A DNA stretch of 45,099 nt. Source: Dhillonvirus LF50P3. This document shows positions 11,419 to 43,618 of the stretch, in pieces (position 1 is the first letter of the stretch; every line of letters starts with the position of its first letter). The stretch lies in sequence record OZ035753.1; one strand, written 5' to 3'. A program made the position numbers and the translations under genes. The notes under the pieces were generated by a model. That model was not told the origin of the DNA, did not search any database, and was given only the letters and a program-made list of their open reading frames with translations.

Positions 11419-11422
11419 TGAA

Positions 11423-11737
11423 GCGGGACAAGCGGGACGTCCCGTTTTGTCCCGCCCCTGTGAAACTGCATACCTACTCACTCTCATTGCATAATCTAAA
11501 AGCGGGACAAGCGGGACGTCCCGTTTTGTCCCACCCCACAAAAGTGCATACGTATTCGGTTTTCGTGCATAAAACAAACGGGACAGAAAGCGGGACAAAC
11601 AAGAGGCGGGACAAAGCGGGACAGCACCCCGTCCCCGCCAGTGCTGCCGCGGTTTTCAGCCGATCGGGACAGGCGGGACAACCCCCAGTCTTTCAGACTA
11701 GACGGGGGTCAATGGCCCCCTCGTCTGAGACTGAATA
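11423..11737. repeat. CGGGAC(A) motif array with two 33-bp hairpin-palindromes and a long stem-loop (copy 1)
   Basis: Near-palindromic units GCGGGACAAGCGGGACGTCCCGTTTTGTCCC(G/A)C at 11423–11455 and 11502–11534; four direct CGGGACA sites at 11579–11623; two more at 11665–11680; imperfect long hairpin 11686–11733. The 11576–11737 part recurs at 40063–40219. Confidence 0.7.
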
Positions 11738-33219: not shown

Positions 33220-34002
33220 TTAACGGCGGCGACGTTTACGTGGCGCTTCGTCTTCGTCGTCGTCCTCATCTTCGTCATCGCGTGGCTTACGACGTTTGCG
33301 AGGTTTTTCATCTTCCTCATCGTCGTCGTCATCGCGGCGCTTGGATTTCTTGGACTTGCGCGGCTTGTCATCTTCGTCATCGTCATCACGACGTTTTGAC
33401 TTTTTGGACTTGCGCGGGCTTTCGTCTTCGTCATCGTTGTCCAGGTCTTCGTCGGAACATGAAGACCCGCCACCTCCGAAGGCTTCGCCGTCTTCACGGA
33501 ATCGCAGACCCAGCAAGCCAGCCCCGAGTCCCTTGCCGTTGGTATTGTTCCACGCCCAAATATCCAGGGACACATTGCAATAACAACCGGAGTAGATCTC
33601 CTGGCCTTCGATCTCGTCACCTTCTACGGTCAGACCTTGTTCCGTCTGCTTCTCGCCGAGTGACGTTTGAATGATCGGCTGTTTGAACGATTTGGCGTTG
33701 ATATACAACATGCCTTCGAATTCTTCGGTTACTTCATCGCGCTCGTCGCCGTCGCGCACTGCGCATTCCTTAGAATCCTGGGCGTAGTGGCGGTCCATCC
33801 ACTTATCGGCATTCTTCTCGGATTTCAGCTTGTCGGTGAGCACTGCGCGCGCTGCCGCTTCCACTTTGTCCACCTGCGGATCTTCTTTATCCAGAAGAAT
33901 CACGGCACGGTATGCCGGTTTTTGTCCATCCTGTTTAGGGGTATCACGTTCCCAAATTTTCAGGAAGCATACGCGCACATTTTTCAGGTTGACTTTAGCC
34001 AT
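33220..34002 (-). CDS. single-stranded DNA-binding protein, DUF2815-like (T7 gp2.5-type) with repetitive charged tail
   Basis: N-terminus MAKVNLKNVRVCFLKIWE typical of the DUF2815 phage SSB family; the C-terminal 80 residues are alternating poly-Asp/Glu and Lys/Arg blocks encoded by DNA-level tandem repeats. Confidence 0.6.
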   Translation of the reverse strand: MAKVNLKNVRVCFLKIWERDTPKQDGQKPAYRAVILLDKEDPQVDKVEAAARAVLTDKLKSEKNADKWMDRHYAQDSKECAVRDGDERDEVTEEFEGMLYINAKSFKQPIIQTSLGEKQTEQGLTVEGDEIEGQEIYSGCYCNVSLDIWAWNNTNGKGLGAGLLGLRFREDGEAFGGGGSSCSDEDLDNDDEDESPRKSKKSKRRDDDDEDDKPRKSKKSKRRDDDDDEEDEKPRKRRKPRDDEDEDDDEDEAPRKRRRR

Positions 34003-36376: not shown

Positions 36377-36895
36377 TTAATCTTCCAGTTCGAAATAAGT
36401 TTCGACGATTTCTTTTAGCTCTTTGTGGAAGTCTTCGACGTCGTCATCTTCCAGCTTAGCGATTGATTTGATCTCGAACGATTCCAGCAGGTCGTCGAAT
36501 TCATCGTTCGCATCGTCGTCATCGCCACCGGCGATAATCGCGGCATACTGCTTGATTTCGTCGCGCATTTCTGCCAGCGGATCGGCATCTTTCTTACCTT
36601 TGCCTTTCGCCGGTGCTTTTTTAGACTTAGCCGGTTTTTCGTCTTCTGCGTCTTCGTCGTCGTCATCTTCTACGACTTCTTTTTTGGCCTTACCCTTCGC
36701 CGGTGCTTTTTTAGCTTTAGCCGGTTTTTCGTCTTCGGCGTCATCGTCGTCATCTTCGGCAACTTCTTTTTTGGCCTTAGACGGCTTCTTGTCTTCCTGT
36801 TTACCAACGGCAGCGCCAACGGTTTCATAATGCTTTGCAATGGTTTCCAGTGCTACTACGCCGCGAGTGATCAGGTTTACGATTTGCTCAAACAT
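36377..36895 (-). CDS. acidic repeat protein
   Basis: 172-aa ORF from MFEQIVNLITRG with RBS GGAGAT; contains two copies of a Lys/Ala-rich plus poly-Asp/Glu unit (KKPSKAKKEVAEDDDDDAEDEKPAKAKKAPAKGKAKKEVVEDDDDEDAEDEKPAKSKKAPAKGKGKK) from a DNA tandem repeat, then a very acidic C-terminus. The listed start at 37075 runs into the intergenic region and was trimmed. Confidence 0.55.
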   Translation of the reverse strand: MFEQIVNLITRGVVALETIAKHYETVGAAVGKQEDKKPSKAKKEVAEDDDDDAEDEKPAKAKKAPAKGKAKKEVVEDDDDEDAEDEKPAKSKKAPAKGKGKKDADPLAEMRDEIKQYAAIIAGGDDDDANDEFDDLLESFEIKSIAKLEDDDVEDFHKELKEIVETYFELED

Positions 36896-37132
36896 GGTAT
36901 ATCTCCGATTGGTTAAGTTTAGGTGTCGGCAGTTAACTTCGTCGGTGGCCTTAACATATTGCCAGGTTACGCGTTCTCCCGTTCGGGTAGTGGACCTGGT
37001 TATATAATCACGGTTGGGAATCCTGACACTTCGATCCGGCCCCTGCGTTGCCCCTCTCCAGTTTGCGTCCTGCATCCTGTCGACGGGGGGAATAATAGAT
37101 TGGTTGCAGGATGGGTGTCAACAACTAATTTC

Positions 37133-37167
37133 AAAAAAAAAGCGCCGAGGCAAAATGCGACGGCGCT
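37133..37167 (-). terminator. orphan minus-strand intrinsic terminator in a divergent intergenic region
   Basis: Plus strand shows A9 then AGCGCCG-aggcaaaatgcga-CGGCGCT; on the minus strand this is a 7-bp GC-rich stem followed by U9. No minus-strand CDS ends here. Confidence 0.55.
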
Positions 37168-37237
37168 AACCAATAAGAGACAATGAGACGGGAATTATTA
37201 TTACACGCGTGCGCGCCCGTTTCAATATCCAAAGGAT

Positions 37238-37266
37238 TTGACACAGTGCAGTTTTGGGTGTAGTTT
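37238..37266 (+). promoter_or_regulatory. sigma70-like promoter candidate for the HTH gene
   Basis: Consensus -35 TTGACA, 17-nt spacer, -10-like TAGTTT; about 30 nt upstream of the ATG at 37298 with RBS GAGGG. Confidence 0.4.
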
Positions 37267-37297
37267 CGTTGGTCATTAACCAACTGAGGGCAGAGCA

Positions 37298-37627
37298 ATG
37301 AATGTAAACGACGCAATCGAAATGTTAACGAAGACTGTTTGCAGTGAGACAAGCCGGTCATGGGCATATACCGATGCCGTGGGGGCTGTGTTATTTGAAA
37401 TCGAACGACTGCGGCTTACCGAAAAAGAATTGCGCGCCAGGCTGGAACTACTCAACGGTACAGCAGCAAGCAAGCTGCAAAAACACAATGAAGAAATGGA
37501 AGAATACAAAAAGCAGGTTATCCGTTTGCGCGCCGAGGGCAAATCTTGGGCGATGATTGCCGAGTTGACCGGAATTAATCAGAGCACAGTGCGCTCCTGG
37601 GTACGCAATAATAAAACTTCTAAGTAA
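37298..37627 (+). CDS. small helix-turn-helix DNA-binding protein (putative transcriptional regulator)
   Basis: 109-aa ORF; coiled-coil-like middle and C-terminal HTH-like segment KSWAMIAELTGINQSTVRSWVRN; first gene of the right-hand plus-strand block. Confidence 0.6.
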   Translation: MNVNDAIEMLTKTVCSETSRSWAYTDAVGAVLFEIERLRLTEKELRARLELLNGTAASKLQKHNEEMEEYKKQVIRLRAEGKSWAMIAELTGINQSTVRSWVRNNKTSK

Positions 37628-37637
37628 GGCCACGGCA

Positions 37638-39902
37638 ATGAGCTTGATTAAATTCGCTATAACAAAACCCGCTAAAAAAGGCGAAAAAGCCAGGGCGGAA
37701 AACTTCCAGATGACGACCGATGAGTTTTTCGAATTTATCAAAGATGCGAAAGAAATCTCCTCGGTGCATATCAACAAGACGGAAGATAAAGCCGAGTATG
37801 CGCGCCGCAAGCGTAAGGCCGATGGCATCGTGGCGTATACCAGTGACGGATTGCGTCGTAAGACCAGTGCGGTGGACCGCTCGATCCTGTTCTTTGATAT
37901 TGACCGCACCGACACCCGCACCCTGCGCCGCTGCCGTAAGGCGTTCATCGACGCGGGACTGGAGCACGTCTTCCACACCACTACCGGCGACCGCCACCCG
38001 CTGAAAGGCGGCACGCGTTGCGCTCGTTTCCTGGTGCTCACTGACAAGCCTGTACCGGCGGAAGACCTGGGCCGCGTCCAGTATGCACTATTACACCAAC
38101 TGGGCCTGTCAGATGTGGACTTCGACGATTGCACGAAAGACACAAACCGCCTTATGTACCTGCCTCACCAGCAATCGGTTGTTAAGTGTCACTACGGCAA
38201 ACGCGCCCGCGTCCGTCGTCTTCTTCGCCTGGCTGATAAGCTGGGAGTGGAAAAAGAGGAAGTACGCCGCGAACTAACCCAGGGCGATGACGGCGTGGCG
38301 GACGGTATTCTGGATTGGTGCTTCCAGGCGGGATTCGAACCGCTGTCGTCCGGTCGTGGTTATGAAGTGCCGTGCCCTAACGAACACCTGCATAGCGGCG
38401 AAGGGTCAACCGCTATCATGGTTAAGGATGGCGAGATCCGTTTCAAGTGTATGCACACCGGCAACGAGTGTTGCTCGGAACTGAATAGACACCAGCACCT
38501 GGCGCTACGTCTTATCGGGATCCCGGACCACCTGAACGTCGAACCGCACAACATGTCACGTAAGCAAATCGCCGCCATCCTTCCGGGACTGGACGATGAG
38601 GAAGTGGAATCGTGCTACGAACATATCGTTGATGCGGTCGGAGACGGCGACGAGTACGGCGTATGTACAGATGCAGACCTGGACAACGAGCCGGTTGCTC
38701 TGTTCAGTAAGCACGACCCGATCATCGAGGGGCTGATTAACTTCAAATCGACCTGGTATCTGGCTGGCGAGTCGAACATCGGTAAATCGTTCTACGTGCT
38801 GGGCCAGATGGCGTCAGTATCTGCCGGTATTCCGTTCGGCGGCGCGAAGGTCGTCCAGTCTCATTGCTTCTATTTCGACGCGGAAGGTGGCGAAGCCTCC
38901 AACCAGCGTAAGGAGGCATTGCAGATTAAATATGAGCACGACCTGGACAAGCTGCACATTATCGATCTGCAATCACGCGGCTGGGATATCACCAGCAAAT
39001 CCGGCTTGCGTGAAGTTATCAGCTTCATCAACCGCACCGCTAACGGCGAGCCGGTTGGCCTGGTGGCGTTCGACTCACTCAACCAGACTGTTGCGCTGCG
39101 GTCCGCCGATGCAAAACCGTTCGACGAGAACAACGCCAGCGATATGGGCGAAGTGGTCAAAGCGCTGAAGGCCATTGCGGAAAATACAGGCGGCAGTGCG
39201 GGCGTCATCCACCACCCGGCGAAAGGTGCAAACGGCAGCAGATCCCCCCGCGGGTCCGGCGCGCTGCATGGTGCTGTTGATTCTGCGTTCTTCCTGGAGC
39301 AACCGGACGACAACCAGCCAGGCCAATTGAACCTGTATCACGAAAAGGCACGTAACGGCATCAAGCAAGCGCCGCGCGGCTTCGTCCTGCTCAAGTGCAA
39401 GGTTAAGGTGGATCTCCGCAAGTCCGAAGCGTTCGAAGCCCACCAGTCCACCAGCGCCGGGCCAGACTTCGGCGATGTGGTTGCCGGTTGGGACGTCAAG
39501 CCGATTGCATCCACGCCACGCGACGAGACTCTGTACCTCGTACCGGTCGCCCTGGCACCGTTCGCTATTGAACAGGCGAAGGCTGCGGGCAAAGCAGCAG
39601 TTAAGGAAGAGAACGCCGCAGGGCCGCGCAACGAAAAAGAGAAAGTGCTTTATGCAGCACTGGAAAAACTGATGGAAGATAACCCGGACCATACCGGATT
39701 CAGCAAATCGGCAATTGTCCGCCAGGCTGGGCTTGCGAAAGGTGGCACATCTACGAAGGCAATAGACGATATGGTCGAGCGCGGCGTGCTTGGGTTTTAC
39801 ACAGACCCACACACCGGGGCCATCTATGGGTCGTCTAATATCGTCATCAAAACGAACATACCCATCACGCTTTCGGCTACCGATGACGACCTGAAAGATT
39901 AA
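37638..39902 (+). CDS. DNA primase/helicase fusion
   Basis: 754-aa ORF: N-terminal primase-like region with acidic cluster LFFDIDRTD, a Cys/His cluster (CPNEHLH...CMHTGNECC) and a C-terminal RecA/DnaB-like ATPase with Walker A GESNIGKS and Walker B-like LVAFDSL. Confidence 0.8.
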   Translation: MSLIKFAITKPAKKGEKARAENFQMTTDEFFEFIKDAKEISSVHINKTEDKAEYARRKRKADGIVAYTSDGLRRKTSAVDRSILFFDIDRTDTRTLRRCRKAFIDAGLEHVFHTTTGDRHPLKGGTRCARFLVLTDKPVPAEDLGRVQYALLHQLGLSDVDFDDCTKDTNRLMYLPHQQSVVKCHYGKRARVRRLLRLADKLGVEKEEVRRELTQGDDGVADGILDWCFQAGFEPLSSGRGYEVPCPNEHLHSGEGSTAIMVKDGEIRFKCMHTGNECCSELNRHQHLALRLIGIPDHLNVEPHNMSRKQIAAILPGLDDEEVESCYEHIVDAVGDGDEYGVCTDADLDNEPVALFSKHDPIIEGLINFKSTWYLAGESNIGKSFYVLGQMASVSAGIPFGGAKVVQSHCFYFDAEGGEASNQRKEALQIKYEHDLDKLHIIDLQSRGWDITSKSGLREVISFINRTANGEPVGLVAFDSLNQTVALRSADAKPFDENNASDMGEVVKALKAIAENTGGSAGVIHHPAKGANGSRSPRGSGALHGAVDSAFFLEQPDDNQPGQLNLYHEKARNGIKQAPRGFVLLKCKVKVDLRKSEAFEAHQSTSAGPDFGDVVAGWDVKPIASTPRDETLYLVPVALAPFAIEQAKAAGKAAVKEENAAGPRNEKEKVLYAALEKLMEDNPDHTGFSKSAIVRQAGLAKGGTSTKAIDDMVERGVLGFYTDPHTGAIYGSSNIVIKTNIPITLSATDDDLKD

Positions 39903-39977
39903 ATCCTGCGCGCATTGGTTGCCGATATGGGAATTCCCATATCGCTAAATGGTTAAATTTTGCGCGCATTGGTTGCC
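39901..39977. repeat. 23-bp direct repeats flanking a perfect 22-bp palindrome
   Basis: AAATCCTGCGCGCATTGGTTGCC (39901–39923) and AAATTTTGCGCGCATTGGTTGCC (39955–39977); between them CGATATGGGAATTCCCATATCG (39923–39944) is its own reverse complement; a third partial copy GTATTGGTTGCCG at 40001–40013. Confidence 0.7.
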
Positions 39978-40062
39978 ATTTTGAGTGTTTTTATCAGGTC
40001 GTATTGGTTGCCGTGTAGTGTGAATATAGTGAATAGTTATGCAGTTTTGTTGCATAAAGTAA

Positions 40063-40219
40063 GCGGGACAGAAAGCGGGACAAACAAGGGGCGGGACAAA
40101 GCGGGACAGCACCCCCGTCCCGCCCCGGATGGCGCGGCCTGGAGAGGAGCGGGACAGGCGGGACAACCCCCAGTCTTTCAGACTAGACGGGGGTCAATGG
40201 CCCCCCTCGTCTGAGACTG
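40063..40219. repeat. CGGGAC(A) motif array and long stem-loop (copy 2)
   Basis: GCGGGACA at 40063, 40075, 40091, 40101, 40149 and 40158, then the hairpin CAGTCTTTCAGACTAGACGGGGGTCAATGGCCCCCCTCGTCTGAGACTG (40171–40219); near-identical to 11576–11737. Confidence 0.7.
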
Positions 40220-40379
40220 AATAAAATCCGGGGATTGCAAAACACACGGCAGCATGATGCGAAGTTCGGTCGTCGACGAACTAGGCAACCAATGCGGGTC
40301 GCATTATGCCGAGTGAAAAATGCAGTTTGCAGCCACAGCGGATAGCGATCAACTTTTTCATGCGCGTGATTAACATTGG

Positions 40380-40408
40380 TTGCACCCTACCTGGCACCCT
40401 GCTATATT
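40380..40408 (+). promoter_or_regulatory. sigma70-like promoter candidate with conserved leader
   Basis: TTGCAC (inside ATTGGTTGCAC), 17-nt spacer, TATATT, then TTGGTTGCACACCAACGTGAGGAC...ATG at 40437; the -10 and leader closely match 5797–5831 on the minus strand. Confidence 0.45.
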
Positions 40409-40436
40409 GGTTGCACACCAACGTGAGGACTGAACA

Positions 40437-40742
40437 ATGAAAGCGATTATCTGGAATTACGCAATGGCCCTGGCAAAGCTGAACGAAGCGAAAGCGCTGA
40501 ACGGCAACGTAGACCGTGCGCGCCAGTTTGCGACACTGGCATACCAGTCAATCATGTGTGCGCTAGACGATATGGACGCCAGCATGGATGACCTGGGTCC
40601 GCTGCGTAAGGCAATCCATGAATACGCGCTGGCATTCTCCCGTGAGCGCCTGGCTTATCGCTTCGGTATTGGCGAGAAGGCAGTGACAAACGTCGCCAGG
40701 ATTAAAGCCCAGCGTGAGCTATTCGCCCAGCTTGCGAAATAA
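40437..40742 (+). CDS. hypothetical protein
   Basis: 101-aa ORF with RBS GAGGAC and the promoter candidate just upstream. Confidence 0.5.
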   Translation: MKAIIWNYAMALAKLNEAKALNGNVDRARQFATLAYQSIMCALDDMDASMDDLGPLRKAIHEYALAFSRERLAYRFGIGEKAVTNVARIKAQRELFAQLAK

Positions 40743-40751
40743 GGGGCCAAA

Positions 40752-41021
40752 ATGGGACGTAGACGAGCAAAACAGCTTTCGTGGCATATTCCCCTGCATT
40801 GCATACGAATATGGGCTAAGAATGCGACTGAGGGCGATTCTGTATTCTGGTGCTATCGCGATGACGTAAAGCCACTGACGCAGACTCGCTACTTACACCA
40901 GTTCGCAGCACAACACGATTTCAGGGTGCGGACTTCCTTGCAACCAATGGGAATACGTATTACATTACGCCAGAAGCCCGCCATTGAGCGGGTGGGCAAA
41001 CACTGGAGACTGAGCAAATGA
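40752..41021 (+). CDS. hypothetical protein
   Basis: 89-aa ORF with RBS AAGGGG; ends in the repeated junction GGAGACTGAGCAAATGA. Confidence 0.5.
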   Translation: MGRRRAKQLSWHIPLHCIRIWAKNATEGDSVFWCYRDDVKPLTQTRYLHQFAAQHDFRVRTSLQPMGIRITLRQKPAIERVGKHWRLSK

Positions 41022-41170
41022 TCAAAGTTCAGAGCAAGGCAACCGGTCTGATTTATCTTGTGGTGTGGGAGGGGAACGGAAGCGTAACGCTCATGCACCC
41101 AAAAACCAAATCACGCCACACTATCAGCCAATTTACCCTGAACCAGAACTATCGGAGACTGAGCAAATGA
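41018..41170 (+). CDS. hypothetical small protein
   Basis: 50-aa ORF bounded at both ends by the repeated junction motif, which supplies RBS, ATG and the overlapping upstream stop. Confidence 0.4.
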   Translation: MIKVQSKATGLIYLVVWEGNGSVTLMHPKTKSRHTISQFTLNQNYRRLSK

Positions 41171-41319
41171 CACCAATGCAAAGAGCGCTAATGGCGGGAT
41201 TCTCGCAGAAGTTTATTTCGGTAGACGCCTGCATAGCTGATTATGAGATGGACGGCATCGCTACGGTATGCGATGGCGACTATAAGACTGTTGACGAGAT
41301 TGAGGAGACTGAGCAATGA
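41167..41319 (+). CDS. hypothetical small acidic protein
   Basis: 50-aa ORF starting at the second junction ATG and ending in the third junction; the listed 41065 start ignores the junction RBS. Confidence 0.4.
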   Translation: MTPMQRALMAGFSQKFISVDACIADYEMDGIATVCDGDYKTVDEIEETEQ

Positions 41320-41870
41320 GATTACTATTCCGCCGCAAATCAGACGGGCGCATACTGAAGCCGATCCAGACCCTGGATTCCTACGTCCGCTTGCACCACG
41401 CGGCAAGCGATCGGGTATTCCGCGCATCGAAGGGCACATTGCCGCAGTTCTTCGAAGTCCTCACACACGATATTGAGCGCGGCGATGTGTTGCGTGATAT
41501 TCGCGACGGGCAATTGTGGGTCGTGGAGCACACCTCCCAGCACGGCTTGCGGTTGAAGTCCGGTATCTTGTTGAAGGGGATGACGTACTTCGGCCTCGTA
41601 AATTACGAGCGAGTGGGTCGCAAATACAGCCTTCGGGACCGCCAGCCTCATGAGCGCGTGGAGTTCCGCAAGTCGCAGCCCGCGTATGCCACTTACGACG
41701 CGAGCAAAGTGATGGAGCCGATCCGCCAGGCCACGCGTGAGATAGTCAATCGCTTTGATGCCGTGACGAATGCACAGCGCCAGGCGCGGGAATACGGTGT
41801 GGGATTTATCCGTGTCGAACCAGACGGCAGCATGAAGGCCATCGACCCGCGCTCGGTGATTCTGAAATGA
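41316..41870 (+). CDS. hypothetical protein
   Basis: 184-aa ORF starting at the third junction ATG; no motif. Confidence 0.5.
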   Translation: MRLLFRRKSDGRILKPIQTLDSYVRLHHAASDRVFRASKGTLPQFFEVLTHDIERGDVLRDIRDGQLWVVEHTSQHGLRLKSGILLKGMTYFGLVNYERVGRKYSLRDRQPHERVEFRKSQPAYATYDASKVMEPIRQATREIVNRFDAVTNAQRQAREYGVGFIRVEPDGSMKAIDPRSVILK

Positions 41871-42089
41871 GTGCGTCTATCCGTGATATGCTCATGCACA
41901 ACCGCTTTGAGATAGGCGGTCGGGTGTTTCGCAATTACTTCGTGGCGCGTGCATGGGCGCGCCATATTGGCAAACCGGAAGGGGCAATTCGATGCTATAC
42001 GTCTTCGCGGTAGTATGTGGCGGTAGTCTGGCAGCCCTGGTGCTGTTGGCGGCTGTTATTAGTCTGGTTAAATACCTATGGAGCAGATT

Positions 42090-42377
42090 ATGATTCATGA
42101 TGTGATTTATTGGTTTGGTATGGCCAGCATGTTATGCCTGGTTACGGGAGTGCTGGGCGCAATATGGGTATTCCTGGTATGGCCCGCCGTGGAAGCTGCC
42201 AGCATTACCCGGATGACGTTCCAGATATACAAGCGCCGCGGGATCACGGAGCACCCGACCAGGTTGCGCATGTGGTGGCTGTGGTATCGCGATATGATCG
42301 GCGGGCGAATGTTCGAGGCCGTCCGATCGGAAGGGTGGGAGTGGAAAGGCGTCGGCAAGTGGTCCATTTTCGATTAA
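42090..42377 (+). CDS. hypothetical membrane protein
   Basis: ORF with hydrophobic N-terminal helices (WFGMASMLCLVTGVLGAIWVFLVW); alternative start at 42078; followed by a strong terminator. Confidence 0.45.
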   Translation: MIHDVIYWFGMASMLCLVTGVLGAIWVFLVWPAVEAASITRMTFQIYKRRGITEHPTRLRMWWLWYRDMIGGRMFEAVRSEGWEWKGVGKWSIFD

Positions 42378-42395
42378 TTATGCAAGCGTGATATA

Positions 42396-42429
42396 GTCCC
42401 AGTGAGCTAAAACTTACTGGGACTTTTTT
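42396..42429 (+). terminator. intrinsic terminator upstream of the lysis cassette
   Basis: GTCCCAGTGAG...CTTACTGGGAC long stem-loop followed by TTTTTT; the holin ATG follows at 42430. Confidence 0.65.
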
Positions 42430-42720
42430 ATGGATAAGCTAAACGAGTGGTTATTTGCCCTCGCATGTCTGGCAGGCGGCTTCGTAGGCGCACGCATTCA
42501 TGGCGAGGCTACGAAAGGCCCGCTGAACTTCGTTTTATATATCGTAGTTGGCTTCCTGTGCGCCGTATTTGGTGCGCCAGCTATCGCCGAGTGGGCGGGC
42601 TTATCGGGCGAGCGCACTGTCGCCGGTTTGGGCTTCGTAACTGCAATCTTCTGGATGCCAATAGCCGCCCGGATCAGGGAGACTATTGAGTCGTTCCGAC
42701 TTCCGGGGGGCGCAAAATGA
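42430..42720 (+). CDS. holin (putative, three predicted transmembrane helices)
   Basis: 96-aa ORF with three hydrophobic segments and a charged C-terminus; first gene of a holin-holin-endolysin arrangement. Confidence 0.6.
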   Translation: MDKLNEWLFALACLAGGFVGARIHGEATKGPLNFVLYIVVGFLCAVFGAPAIAEWAGLSGERTVAGLGFVTAIFWMPIAARIRETIESFRLPGGAK

Positions 42721-42962
42721 TTATCTCCGTCCTGTTGTTTGTTATCATAGGGGCTTCGTCCCTGTTTAACGTGTATGCGCCGTCCGTCCAGGATGGCATT
42801 TTAGGCCGGGTGTTATATCTGCTAACGGCGATGATCTGCGTTATCGGATTGTTGCAAACAGGAGACGTATCTGACACCACCTGGACCGCGTTAATCTGGC
42901 TGTTTGCATTGCGCACGCTGCGTAATGCTGTTTTGAATGGGGTAAAACATGCGATTCAGTGA
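42717..42962 (+). CDS. second holin-like or antiholin-like membrane protein
   Basis: 81-aa ORF overlapping the holin stop; two or three hydrophobic helices; directly upstream of the endolysin. Confidence 0.45.
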   Translation: MIISVLLFVIIGASSLFNVYAPSVQDGILGRVLYLLTAMICVIGLLQTGDVSDTTWTALIWLFALRTLRNAVLNGVKHAIQ

Positions 42963-43440
42963 CAACGGTCTAAGATTTACGGCAGCATGGGAGGCTTTCA
43001 GCCCGGTGCCGTATTTCGCGACCAAGAAAGAGCAGGCCCGCGGCCTGTACACATGGGGTTATGGTCATACCGGCACTAATCCTCCTCGAAGCATTACCCG
43101 CGAGGAAGCGCTGGCACTGCTCAAGCGCGATGTGGCGTATGCTGAGGACTGGGTGAACAAATACGCACATCCGAGCATTAACCAGGCGCAATTCGACGCG
43201 CTGGTGGACCTGGTAATCAACGCCGGTCAGGGTCCGATCGTACCGGACCATATCGCTAATGACTTCGATGATGCGGTGCGCCTGGGTGACTGGGCGAAGG
43301 TCCGTGCTACTCTGCCGCAGTTCCGCAAGCAAGGCGGGGAAGTGCTTAAGGGTCTGGTCCGTCGAGCAATTGGCAGACAGGCGTTGTTTGATGGTAAGCA
43401 GTGGGACGTTGCCGAGCGAATCGGGCGTAACGCAGCATAA
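42949..43440 (+). CDS. endolysin, phage lysozyme-like (GH24-type)
   Basis: 163-aa ORF with the lysozyme-family signature around EAFSPVPYFATKKEQARGLYTWGYGHTG (compare the G-x-x-T-I-G-Y-G-H motif of P22/T4-type lysozymes); no signal peptide. Confidence 0.7.
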   Translation: MRFSDNGLRFTAAWEAFSPVPYFATKKEQARGLYTWGYGHTGTNPPRSITREEALALLKRDVAYAEDWVNKYAHPSINQAQFDALVDLVINAGQGPIVPDHIANDFDDAVRLGDWAKVRATLPQFRKQGGEVLKGLVRRAIGRQALFDGKQWDVAERIGRNAA

Positions 43441-43456
43441 TACGAGGTAACACAGT

Positions 43457-43618
43457 ATGTTAAAAAGCATTCTTGATCATAACGCTGACGCGCTCGCCGC
43501 GCTGGCTAAAACCGAAGACCCTGGCGCACGCGCTATCATCGCGGACACTATCAGCCATGCAGGCGTCTTTGACGCGAAGCTGCCGAGTCCGCCACCGCCG
43601 GAAGAGCCAGAAGTGTAA
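43457..43618 (+). CDS. hypothetical small protein
   Basis: 53-aa ORF with RBS GAGG, proline-rich acidic C-terminus; followed by a terminator. Confidence 0.4.
   Translation: MLKSILDHNADALAALAKTEDPGARAIIADTISHAGVFDAKLPSPPPPEEPEV

What the first reader, a model, noticed from the sequence alone, without database searches (positions are those of the whole stretch)
41005..41319. Repeated 16–17 nt gene-junction motif at 150-bp intervals in two reading frames
Seen directly: GGAGACTGAGCAAATGA occurs at 41005–41021 and 41154–41170, and the one-base-shorter GGAGACTGAGCAATGA at 41304–41319. Each copy supplies an RBS (GGAG), an ATG and an overlapping TGA stop (ATGA) for consecutive small genes. Because the third copy lacks one A, the same DNA encodes ...RRLSK in two genes but ...EETEQ in the third. 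Two successive 50-codon genes are delimited exactly by the motif. Inference: conserved boundary sequences that let small gene modules be swapped by recombination.
Basis: partly seen in the sequence, partly recalled or inferred. Interest (0 to 1): 0.5.

Follow-up and report, generated by a model that had tools for sequence, protein, structure and literature searches.

The report
Shared stop-start junction flanking swappable phage genes
A 13–17-base ribosome-binding/stop-start sequence is repeated at every gene junction of a small, highly variable slot in Dhillonvirus coliphages, where zero to three unrelated mini-genes come and go between relatives; it is a real but modest example of a conserved boundary sequence.

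Summary
GGAGACTGAGCAAATGA lies at 41005-41021 and 41154-41170, and GGAGACTGAGCAATGA at 41304-41319. Each copy supplies GGAG, an ATG and an overlapping TGA for four consecutive genes: an 89-aa gene, A (50 aa), B (50 aa) and a 184-aa gene. The window is a Dhillonvirus, 98.5% identical to Escherichia phage Oekolampad.

In 42 related loci, the slot between the 89-aa and 184-aa genes holds 0-3 cassettes in about 12 arrangements. There are four cassette kinds (A, B, C, D); only D has a detectable relative, the downstream gene. Every junction (12 left|right combinations) carries the motif family, so copies equal cassettes plus one in complete slots. The 17-nt form follows genes in one frame and the 16-nt form follows B, keeping TGA in frame.

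A and B are under purifying selection, and A models as an SH3-like barrel. No promoter, terminator or RNA structure is involved.

Best reading: a translational-coupling junction inherited with each cassette, which also gives the short homology at which cassettes are gained or lost. The recombination role is inferred. Sequence-identity breakpoints are not enriched at the motif, and the 150-bp spacing is coincidental. This is a new variant of known boundary-sequence ideas, of moderate interest.

The parts
40752..41021 (+). Conserved upstream gene ('up', 89 aa, PHROG 12533, function unknown). Its last five codons and stop (TGG AGA CTG AGC AAA TGA) are motif copy 1.
   Evidence: Present in all 35 relatives examined.
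41005..41021 (+). Motif copy 1, 17-nt form GGAGACTGAGCAAATGA. It holds GGAG, a 9-nt spacer, the ATG of gene A and the TGA stop of the 89-aa gene.
   Evidence: The 18 nt from the preceding T to the TGA are identical in 27 of 35 relatives. Synonymous diversity is 0.063, against 0.274 for the gene body.
41018..41170 (+). Cassette A, 50 aa, accessory. It is found in 14 of 154 matching phage records. The predicted fold is an SH3-like beta-barrel.
   Evidence: pN/pS 0.21; pLDDT 93.1; fold-level hits only, none with E <= 0.001.
41154..41170 (+). Motif copy 2, 17-nt form. It holds the stop of A and the Shine-Dalgarno sequence and ATG of B.
   Evidence: The A|B, A|C, A|dn and A|B-long junctions in relatives all carry it.
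41167..41319 (+). Cassette B, 50 aa, PHROG 15977, with an invariant ATVCDG core. It is the commonest cassette, found in 93 of 154 records, and varies in length (44/47/50/69/84 aa).
   Evidence: (pN/pS 0.31). The structure model has low confidence.
41304..41319 (+). Motif copy 3, 16-nt form GGAGACTGAGCAATGA. It is one A shorter, so TGA is in B's frame (GAG GAG ACT GAG CAA TGA). It also supplies the Shine-Dalgarno sequence and ATG of the 184-aa gene.
   Evidence: Variants in relatives differ at B's synonymous positions (ACT/ACA/ACC, GAG/GAA).
41316..41870 (+). Conserved downstream gene ('dn', 184 aa, PHROG 10243, function unknown). Cassette D of other Dhillonviruses is a truncated paralogue of its N-terminal part.
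   Evidence: hhalign probability 95.8%, E 7e-9.
40425..40440 (+). Degenerate motif relative GAGGACTGAACAATGA (3 mismatches to the 16-nt form) at the start of the conserved 101-aa gene (40437-40742).
   Evidence: Conserved at this position in all relatives whose fetched locus reaches that gene.
37286..37301 (+). Degenerate motif relative GAGGGCAGAGCAATGA (4 mismatches) at the start of the 109-aa HTH protein gene, the first gene of the rightward operon. In relatives it reads GGAGACAGAACAATGA or GGAGACTGAATTATGA. No ORF lies upstream, so here it is purely an initiation region.

Best explanation
The motif is a shared translational-coupling junction: a Shine-Dalgarno GGAG, an 8-9-nt spacer and an ATGA stop-start overlap. 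It sits at every gene boundary of a hypervariable accessory-gene slot in the rightward operon of Dhillonvirus phages.

Each small cassette (A, B, C or D) lies between two motif copies, so a complete slot with n cassettes has n+1 copies. The junction lets each ORF be translated by ribosomes that finish the previous one, without its own promoter. The length of the A-run (AAA or AA) sets the frame so that TGA ends the upstream gene.

Because the same 13-17 nt flank unrelated ORFs as direct repeats, they provide the short homology at which a cassette can be cleanly lost (repeat-to-repeat deletion). They also provide the point where a cassette can be gained from a co-infecting relative while the operon stays translatable.

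Shown here: the anatomy, conservation of the motif across relatives, variable slot content, unrelatedness of A, B and C to one another and to the flanking genes, the frame rule, and purifying selection on A and B.

Inferred: that GGAG works as the ribosome-binding site, that translation is coupled, and that recombination actually happens within the motif.
For: 1. The motif is exact and non-random.
2. Of 35 GenBank and IMG/VR Dhillonvirus loci, 32 fall into 11 complete arrangements: up-dn, up-A-dn, up-B-dn, up-A-B-dn, up-C-B-dn, up-A-C-B-dn, up-D-dn, a B-long form and an A-B-long::dn fusion. The other three have a broken or atypical end. Seven metagenome loci add the same arrangements plus two broken variants. 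Twelve distinct left|right junction pairs all carry the motif family.
3. Close relatives differ by exactly one motif-to-motif unit. GeorgBuechner is 95.5% identical over the region and lacks the 149 nt of A.
4. Similarity between junctions stops sharply at the ends of the 17 nt. The left contexts are CACT|, TATC|, TTGA| and ACCT|. The right contexts differ for each cassette.
5. A, B and C are unrelated to one another and to both flanking genes by BLASTP and hhalign. Only D matches anything, namely dn.
6. The same 13 nt encode (W/R)RLSK in one frame and EETEQ in another. The 17-nt form always follows up, A or D, and the 16-nt form always follows B.
7. The motif is more conserved than coding requires: pS 0.063 against 0.274, in the lowest 7% of 5-codon windows.
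8. It is not the phage's general initiation region. Among 64 Oekolampad gene starts the next best match has 3 mismatches.
9. Where B-long ends at its own TAA, the motif is still kept as a non-coding leader of dn (L005 and L045).
10. The + strand has no predicted sigma-70 promoter anywhere in the scanned 36500-43500, and no terminator between 39276 and the strong one at 42395-42424. So the genes from 40437 to the 99-aa gene at 42078-42377 are one predicted transcription unit.
11. The junctions share no RNA fold, and junction 2 is unusually unstructured (z +2.45).
12. A and B are real genes (pN/pS 0.21 and 0.31; A pLDDT 93).
13. Some mosaic joints do fall at the motif. In KarlBarth, B matches the window (a few differences in 150 nt) while dn diverges immediately after copy 3. 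In BF9, A is 97.7% identical to the window's A, but a different B type follows copy 2.
Against: - No experiment shows coupling or recombination here. The only Dhillonvirus proteomics found (phage EE09, PMC10673088) does not list the slot proteins (CDS46-48) among those detected, but it found only four phage proteins in infected cells.
- Identity jumps between relatives are not enriched at the motif compared with the interior of dn. Clear intragenic joints exist (SM_A8, bob), so ordinary homologous recombination in the flanking genes could carry cassettes along.
- 13-17 nt is short for RecA-type recombination. The phage encodes an Enc34-type ssDNA-binding protein and a DUF2800/PD-(D/E)XK nuclease, but no recognised annealing recombinase was identified.
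- Motif variants are private to single copies (for example L049, L025, L015), so there is no sign of copy homogenisation.
- A precise B deletion between the 17-nt and 16-nt copies would have to cross over within AATGA to keep A's stop.
- The observed cassette order is always A, then C, then B.
Confidence: 0.6

Rival explanations
1. The motif is only a translation signal. Cassettes enter and leave by illegitimate recombination followed by selection for intact genes, or ride along with homologous exchanges in the flanking genes. Each newcomer simply copies or keeps the resident Shine-Dalgarno/ATGA junction, and the repeat plays no part in recombination.
For: - Breakpoints are not enriched at the motif, and intragenic joints exist.
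- Copy 3 drifts at B's synonymous sites, as a merely functional initiation region would.
- The same 17-mer sits in front of start codons of unrelated genes in non-Dhillonvirus viral contigs (L017/L019/L028/L032, L021/L034, L024, L033), so it can serve as an ordinary initiation region.
- Relatives of the motif head the 109-aa and 101-aa genes, where no cassette variation was seen.
Against: - Illegitimate recombination does not predict the same sharply bounded 13-17 nt at 12 different junction pairs.
- Other genes of the phage use quite different initiation regions.
- Related phages differ by exactly one repeat unit.
Confidence: 0.25
2. The motif is a sequence-specific regulatory operator on the mRNA, for example a binding site for a phage translational repressor or a small RNA. 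It would co-regulate a set of rightward-operon genes: the 109-aa HTH gene, the 101-aa gene, the slot genes and dn.
For: - The motif family heads at least five genes of one operon, including one with no upstream ORF.
- The positions after GGAG are conserved but cannot pair with 16S rRNA, as in cluster K start-associated sequences (PMC3203893).
- Synonymous diversity in copy 1 is reduced.
Against: - Spacer positions vary freely at copy 3 and at the 109-aa gene among relatives.
- No RNA-binding regulator was identified.
- There is no Rfam match and no shared structure.
Confidence: 0.07
3. The motif is a local tandem duplication of a 150-bp unit that has since diverged.
For: Spacing is equal at 149 and 150 nt, and there are two 50-codon ORFs. 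The C-terminal RLSK peptide is shared by the 89-aa gene, A and D.
Against: - A and B have no detectable similarity (BLASTP, and hhalign probability 0.1%).
- They use the motif in different frames.
- A and B occur independently of each other in relatives, and B's length varies.
- Similarity ends abruptly at the motif edges.
Confidence: 0.03

Closest known systems
Short conserved boundary ('linker') sequences proposed for module exchange in lambdoid phages. These are Susskind & Botstein 1978 and Clark et al. 2001, as cited in PMC3029335. The same paper describes mycobacteriophage Island3 gene 68, whose 3' end repeats that of the upstream gene.
   Same: A short sequence is conserved at gene boundaries and flanks alternative or optional genes among related phages. 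An inserted ORFan shares its C-terminal codons with the upstream gene at the DNA level, just as A's RRLSK repeats the 89-aa gene's WRLSK.
   Different: Here the boundary is only 13-17 nt, against about 50 bp in Island3. It is itself the Shine-Dalgarno/stop-start overlap and is used in two reading frames through a 1-nt length difference. It recurs at up to four successive junctions of a single slot.
PeSL cassettes (promoter-early stem-loops) of T4-type phages (Arbiol et al. 2010, PMC2839356; PMC4122927)
   Same: Repeated regulatory sequences flank ORFans in hyperplastic regions. Closely related phages differ by one repeat-to-repeat unit. The proposed mechanism is recombination between flanking repeats, giving deletion or a mini-circle that can reinsert.
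   Different: PeSLs are about 100 bp and combine a sigma-70 promoter with a terminator stem-loop. This motif has neither. It acts at the translational level inside one transcription unit. No circles have been looked for.
Start-associated sequences (SAS) of cluster K mycobacteriophages (Pope et al. 2011, PMC3203893)
   Same: A 13-bp asymmetric repeat contains the Shine-Dalgarno core and lies a few nt upstream of ATG starts in one orientation. It is confined to non-structural genes, heads genes of different families, and sometimes contains the upstream gene's stop. Positions that cannot pair with 16S rRNA are conserved.
   Different: SAS has a different sequence (GGGATAGGAGCCC) and 11-19 dispersed copies per genome, often with 17-bp inverted-repeat extensions. 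Here there are three exact copies clustered in one variable slot, plus two degenerate ones.
Ordinary translationally coupled ATGA overlaps in bacterial and phage operons (established knowledge)
   Same: The stop overlaps the start, and the Shine-Dalgarno sequence lies inside the upstream coding region 8-9 nt before the ATG. 30 of 64 Oekolampad gene starts read ATGA.
   Different: Ordinary overlaps do not share an identical 13-nt sequence across unrelated neighbouring genes and across a whole genus.

Membership tests
Conserved boundary/linker sequences for recombinational module exchange | A short sequence is conserved at gene or module boundaries among related phages. | tested here: met
   The motif family is present at every slot junction in 35 GenBank/IMG-VR loci and 7 metagenome loci.
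Conserved boundary/linker sequences for recombinational module exchange | The flanked modules are optional or alternative and are not homologous to each other. | tested here: met
   The slot holds 0-3 cassettes in about 12 arrangements. A, B and C are mutually unrelated, and D is related only to dn.
Conserved boundary/linker sequences for recombinational module exchange | Recombination joints map to the conserved sequence. | tested here: inconclusive
   Cassette gains and losses are bounded exactly by the motif, and some identity jumps sit on it (KarlBarth, BF9). However, jumps are not enriched there relative to the interior of dn.
Conserved boundary/linker sequences for recombinational module exchange | Recombination at the site has been demonstrated. 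| not testable with these tools
   This needs inverse PCR or deep sequencing of lysates, or crosses.
PeSL cassettes of T4-type phages | The repeat contains a sigma-70-like early promoter. | tested here: not met
   No promoter-like site was predicted on the + strand anywhere in 36500-43500, which includes the motif.
PeSL cassettes of T4-type phages | A terminator stem-loop lies adjacent to the promoter. | tested here: not met
   There is no terminator-like site at the junctions. Folds of the three junctions share no hairpin, with z-scores of -1.16, +2.45 and -0.19.
PeSL cassettes of T4-type phages | The repeats flank ORFans in a hyperplastic region, and relatives differ by repeat-to-repeat units. 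| tested here: met
   A and B have homologues only on Dhillonvirus-sized contigs.
Start-associated sequences (cluster K mycobacteriophages) | An asymmetric ~13-bp repeat with a Shine-Dalgarno core lies a few nt upstream of start codons in one orientation. | tested here: met
Start-associated sequences (cluster K mycobacteriophages) | The consensus is GGGATAGGAGCCC, with 11-19 dispersed copies per genome. | tested here: not met
   The sequence is different, and there are only three exact copies, all within 315 bp.
Translationally coupled stop-start overlap | An ATGA overlap with a Shine-Dalgarno sequence inside the upstream ORF, and no intervening promoter or terminator. | tested here: met
Translationally coupled stop-start overlap | Translation of the downstream gene depends on translation of the upstream gene. 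| not testable with these tools
   This needs reporter fusions with upstream nonsense mutations.
Integron gene cassettes (attC/integrase) | A tyrosine integrase and imperfect inverted-repeat attC sites are present. | tested here: not met
   No integrase is annotated in the 65-gene Oekolampad record. The motif is not palindromic and forms no hairpin.
Tandem gene duplication | Neighbouring units are homologous along their whole length. | tested here: not met
   A versus B gives hhalign probability 0.1% and BLASTP finds nothing significant.

The most novel reading that the evidence does not exclude
The stop-start/Shine-Dalgarno junction is itself the recombination site of a promoterless, integrase-free gene-cassette system. 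Units of one ORF plus one junction (149-150 bp for A or B) would be excised as circles, or copied between co-infecting Dhillonviruses, by the phage's own recombination proteins. They would then reinsert at any resident junction. A one-base A-run length switch keeps each cassette's stop in frame. This would be a translational-level counterpart of T4 PeSL mini-circles and integron cassettes.
Probability: 0.2. Interest if true: 0.7.

Novelty: new variant of a known kind. Interest (0 to 1): 0.42.

Why it matters
How phage genomes become mosaic is a long-running debate. One view is homologous exchange at short conserved boundary sequences. The other is random illegitimate recombination filtered by selection. 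Clear boundary sequences are rarely found (PMC3029335).

This slot is a compact and well-sampled case. One sharply bounded 13-17-nt junction flanks four different cassette kinds, three of them unrelated to anything else in the slot, in about a dozen arrangements, in easily grown E. coli phages of the BASEL collection. That makes the question directly testable by inverse PCR, recoding of one repeat, or phage crosses.

It also marks A, B, C and D as optional small proteins of the kind that often turn out to be host-takeover or anti-defence factors. For annotation, it shows that the 50-codon ORFs are real genes, although several GenBank records omit one or more genes of this slot.

Tried and rejected
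- Chance: rejected by shuffles and by the repeat census.
- Tandem duplication: rejected by BLASTP and hhalign.
- I suspected by eye that the 89-aa gene, A, D and dn were all paralogues sharing a C-terminal ERVG(R)K..RL.K tail. Only D~dn is significant (probability 95.8%). The others match only over the 5-10 residues at the motif-encoded tail. At the DNA level, D's CTGCGCAAA aligns with dn's CTGCGTAAC, which is too short to carry weight.
- RNA element: there are no relevant Rfam hits and no shared or significant fold.
- Promoter or terminator role: none predicted.
- Function of the cassettes: there are no Pfam hits, and the PHROG families are all of unknown function. Homologues are confined to Dhillonvirus-like contigs. 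A's fold is a generic SH3-like barrel with no hit at E <= 0.001. B's model has low confidence.
- Link to known Dhillonvirus anti-defence or trigger genes: Ksap1 lies between the methyltransferase and phosphatase genes, and anti-Tmn is ORF35 of SM_S22. Neither is in this slot.
- The 'HNH endonuclease' label on dn in phage UDS3lw is not supported by Pfam.
- Breakpoint-enrichment scan: inconclusive. Pairs are not independent, and jumps also reflect uneven constraint.
- Proteomic support for translation: the EE09 study was too insensitive.
- Literature search for the motif string: no paper contains it.

Full report
**What is there**

The window is a Dhillonvirus, a siphovirus of E. coli. The region 40400-42100 is 98.5% identical to Escherichia phage Oekolampad (Bas18), and 154 phage records match it, almost all Dhillonvirus.

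GGAGACTGAGCAAATGA lies at 41005-41021 and 41154-41170, and GGAGACTGAGCAATGA at 41304-41319. The 13-nt core occurs three times and nowhere else in the window. With up to two mismatches there are 6 matches against 0.72 expected, and no shuffle out of 100 reached that. A repeat census of the whole window finds no other family of three or more copies of 13 nt or longer, apart from families built of short triplet repeats.

The ORFs are as described:
- an 89-aa gene (40752-41021, ...WRLSK*);
- gene A (41018-41170, 50 aa, ...RRLSK*);
- gene B (41167-41319, 50 aa, ...EETEQ*);
- a 184-aa gene (41316-41870).

All are linked by ATGA overlaps. Oekolampad's annotators called the same four genes.

**Operon context**

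The + strand has no predicted promoter in the scanned 36500-43500. It has no terminator-like site between 39276 and a strong terminator at 42395-42424, just before the holin genes. There is no relevant Rfam match. The three junctions share no RNA fold, and junction 2 is unusually unstructured (z +2.45), as expected for an open initiation region.

GGAG lies 9 nt (17-nt form) or 8 nt (16-nt form) before the ATG. From established knowledge, this is within the working range for an E. coli Shine-Dalgarno sequence.

**Are A and B real genes?**

Across relatives, A and B show purifying selection in the annotated frame. The pN/pS values are 0.21 and 0.31, against 0.8-4.1 when the same DNA is read in the other two frames.

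A models with high confidence (pLDDT 93.1) as a five-stranded SH3-like barrel. Only fold-level matches were found, to integrase C-terminal domains, Hfq and SH3 domains, none with E <= 0.001. B has an invariant ATVCDG core but a low-confidence model.

None of the slot proteins has a Pfam family, and the matching PHROG families are of unknown function. Homologues of A and B in a 5.8-billion-protein database come only from Dhillonvirus-like contigs.

**Comparative evidence**

I collected the slot from 35 GenBank and IMG/VR Dhillonvirus loci and 7 metagenome contigs. I anchored each locus on the 89-aa gene ('up') and the 174-205-aa gene ('dn').

The slot content is highly variable:

| Arrangement | Loci (of 35) | Note |
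|---|---|---|
| up-dn (empty) | 2 | a single motif joins the two genes |
| up-A-dn | 3 | |
| up-B-dn | 18 | B of 44, 47 or 50 aa |
| up-A-B-dn | 3 | includes the window |
| up-C-B-dn | 1 | C is 62-63 aa |
| up-A-C-B-dn | 1 | |
| up-D-dn | 2 | D is 114 aa |
| B-long forms | 2 | 69 or 84 aa, with their own TAA stop |
| A followed by a B-long::dn fusion | 1 | phage BF9 |

Two further loci carry a mutated B: L007 has a frameshifted B44, and Shigella phage 1b has ATGG in place of ATGA at the B|dn junction.

In the whole phage collection, A is found in 14 records, B in 93, C in 3 and D in 7, out of the 154 records that match the region.

Twelve different left|right junction pairs were seen, and all carry the motif family. 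The C|B junction has a diverged form, GGAGGCCGAGAAATG. Similarity between junctions begins exactly at GGAG and ends at ATGA. The bases to the left (CACT, TATC, TTGA, ACCT) and the codons to the right differ for each gene.

A, B, C and up are mutually unrelated by BLASTP and profile-profile comparison. D is a truncated paralogue of the N-terminal part of dn (hhalign probability 95.8%, E 7e-9).

**The two-frame trick**

After up, A and D the motif is the 17-nt form and reads (T/C)GG AGA CTG AGC AAA TGA. After B it is the 16-nt form and reads GAG GAG ACT GAG CAA TGA.

It follows directly from the sequence that a 17-nt copy after B would fuse B in frame to the next ATG. A 16-nt copy after A would remove A's stop. 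So the single-A difference is a frame adapter kept by selection. One database protein (P0026) is a frameshifted B that reads through the motif in the other frame.

**Is the motif more than a generic ribosome site?**

Three results say yes:
- Among 64 annotated Oekolampad gene starts, the three slot junctions match with 0 mismatches and the next best has 3.
- In 34 relatives (one of the 35 loci was dropped for an in-frame stop), the five motif codons of the 89-aa gene have synonymous diversity 0.063, against 0.274 for the rest of the gene. That puts them in the lowest 7% of 5-codon windows.
- The motif is retained as a non-coding leader of dn where B-long ends at its own TAA.

Two results argue against a strict sequence requirement. 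Copy 3 drifts at B's synonymous positions (ACT/ACA/ACC, GAG/GAA). The exact 17-mer also precedes start codons of unrelated genes in a few non-Dhillonvirus viral contigs.

Degenerate relatives of the motif head two other rightward-operon genes:
- The 101-aa gene has GAGGACTGAACAATGA at 40425-40440.
- The 109-aa HTH gene has GAGGGCAGAGCAATGA at 37286-37301. In relatives this reads GGAGACAGAACAATGA or GGAGACTGAATTATGA.

The second of these has no ORF upstream, which confirms that the family works as an initiation region in its own right.

**Does recombination occur at the motif?**

Evidence for:
- GeorgBuechner (95.5% identical) differs from the window by loss of exactly the 149-nt unit between copies 1 and 2.
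- KarlBarth's B matches the window's with only a few differences, but its dn diverges immediately after copy 3.
- BF9's A is 97.7% identical to the window's A, but a different B type follows copy 2.

Evidence against, or neutral:
- SM_A8 has a joint inside B, and bob has one inside dn.
- A windowed identity-jump scan gave 0.29-0.33 jumps per nt in the two junction zones. The figures were 0.15-0.17 inside up and B, and 0.46 inside dn. The motif is therefore not an outstanding hotspot. The scan is also confounded, because pairs are not independent and constraint is uneven.
- Motif variants are private to single copies within genomes, so there is no sign of copy homogenisation.
- The phage encodes an Enc34-type ssDNA-binding protein and a DUF2800/PD-(D/E)XK nuclease. 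No recognised annealing recombinase was identified that would explain efficient 13-17-nt exchanges.

**Conclusion on mechanism**

The best-supported reading (confidence about 0.6) is as follows. The motif is a translational-coupling junction that each cassette has inherited. Because it recurs as direct repeats around unrelated ORFs, it is the joint at which cassettes are cleanly lost or gained without breaking translation of the operon.

The main rival (about 0.25) keeps the translation role and denies the motif any part in recombination. A regulatory-operator reading (about 0.07) and tandem duplication (about 0.03) are weak. Chance is excluded.

**Comparison with known systems**

- *Boundary or linker sequences.* The concept matches the short conserved boundary sequences proposed for lambdoid phages. 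It also matches mycobacteriophage Island3 gene 68, an ORFan whose last 18 codons repeat those of the upstream gene (PMC3029335).
- *PeSL cassettes.* It works like the PeSL cassettes of T4-type phages, where repeats flank ORFans and repeat-to-repeat deletions and circles occur (PMC2839356). It lacks their defining promoter and stem-loop.
- *Start-associated sequences.* It resembles cluster K start-associated sequences in form (PMC3203893). It differs in sequence, copy number and distribution.

It is therefore not a member of the PeSL or SAS families. It is a new, translational-level variant of the boundary-sequence idea. No paper in the searchable library contains the motif string. The Dhillonvirus papers I read and the excerpts retrieved from another do not describe this slot.

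**Verdict**

The finding is of moderate interest (0.42). It is a clean, testable example rather than a new principle. The '150-bp periodicity' is a coincidence of two 50-codon genes.

Noticed in passing
window 39914, 39968, 40003, 40375, 40406, 37099 (+); 5820, 5833, 21932, 27274, 27291, 30248, 40285, 40940, 43685 (-); 25613 (+): The 9-mer ATTGGTTGC occurs 16 times, against 0.56 expected and a maximum of 3 in shuffles. Most copies I placed lie between genes or at gene starts; 40940 lies inside the 89-aa gene. One copy sits about 25 nt upstream of the 101-aa gene's ATG. It is a candidate phage-specific promoter or operator element, possibly linked to the 109-aa HTH/sigma-70-region-4-like protein.
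   Followed up: partly
window 40063-40165 and 11423-11680: GCGGGACA iterons occur 16 times, against 2.0 expected. They fall in two clusters: 6 copies in the intergenic region after the 754-aa helicase gene and 7 copies in the tail-gene region. The second cluster includes a 38-nt repeat at 11421 and 11500 with a GGGACGTCCC palindrome. They may be regulator-binding or origin sites.
   Followed up: partly
window 39891-39923 and 39945-39977: A 33-nt direct repeat (85% identical), each copy ending in ATTGGTTGCC, lies in the ~530-bp gene-poor region between the helicase gene and the 101-aa gene.
   Followed up: no
window 36583-36762 (inside ORF 36377-37075, - strand): A 90-nt tandem repeat (81% identical) lies within a 232-aa ORF. 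GTC/ATC-rich triplet repeats are also present here and at 33248-33436, inside the Enc34-type ssDNA-binding protein gene.
   Followed up: no
L015 and L051 (phage WF5505 and relatives), cassette D; window 41598-41650: Cassette D (114 aa) is a truncated paralogue of the N-terminal part of the downstream gene. Its tail ...RVGRKATWRLRK* aligns with dn's ...RVGRKYCLRNRR, and at the DNA level CTGCGCAAA aligns with CTGCGTAAC. The 89-aa gene also ends ERVGKHWRLSK. The motif's 3' half may therefore descend from coding sequence of this gene family, but the match is too short to prove it.
   Followed up: partly
L048 (Escherichia phage BF9): The slot holds A followed by an in-frame fusion of a B-long N-terminus to the last ~50 residues of dn, so the dn N-terminal domain is deleted. 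This suggests the N-terminal part of dn is dispensable.
   Followed up: no
window 40306-40440 (+): A 44-aa ORF ends ...RTEQ* through the degenerate motif copy and overlaps the 101-aa gene's ATG by ATGA. It is annotated in some relatives (SM_A2, SM_A8, B2, Sponge, BEK2-2) but not in Oekolampad. It overlaps ATTGGTTGC elements, and its coding status is unclear.
   Followed up: no
L053 (phage UDS3lw), homologue of window 41316-41870: The downstream gene is labelled 'HNH endonuclease' in GenBank record PQ658967. Pfam finds no HNH or any other domain in the window's orthologue, so the label looks like an annotation error.
   Followed up: partly
L007 and L052 (Shigella phage 1b): B is disrupted in some genomes. 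L007 has a 1-nt deletion giving a 9-aa ORF. Shigella phage 1b has ATGG instead of ATGA at the B|dn junction, which removes B's stop. These are either decaying cassettes or sequencing errors.
   Followed up: no
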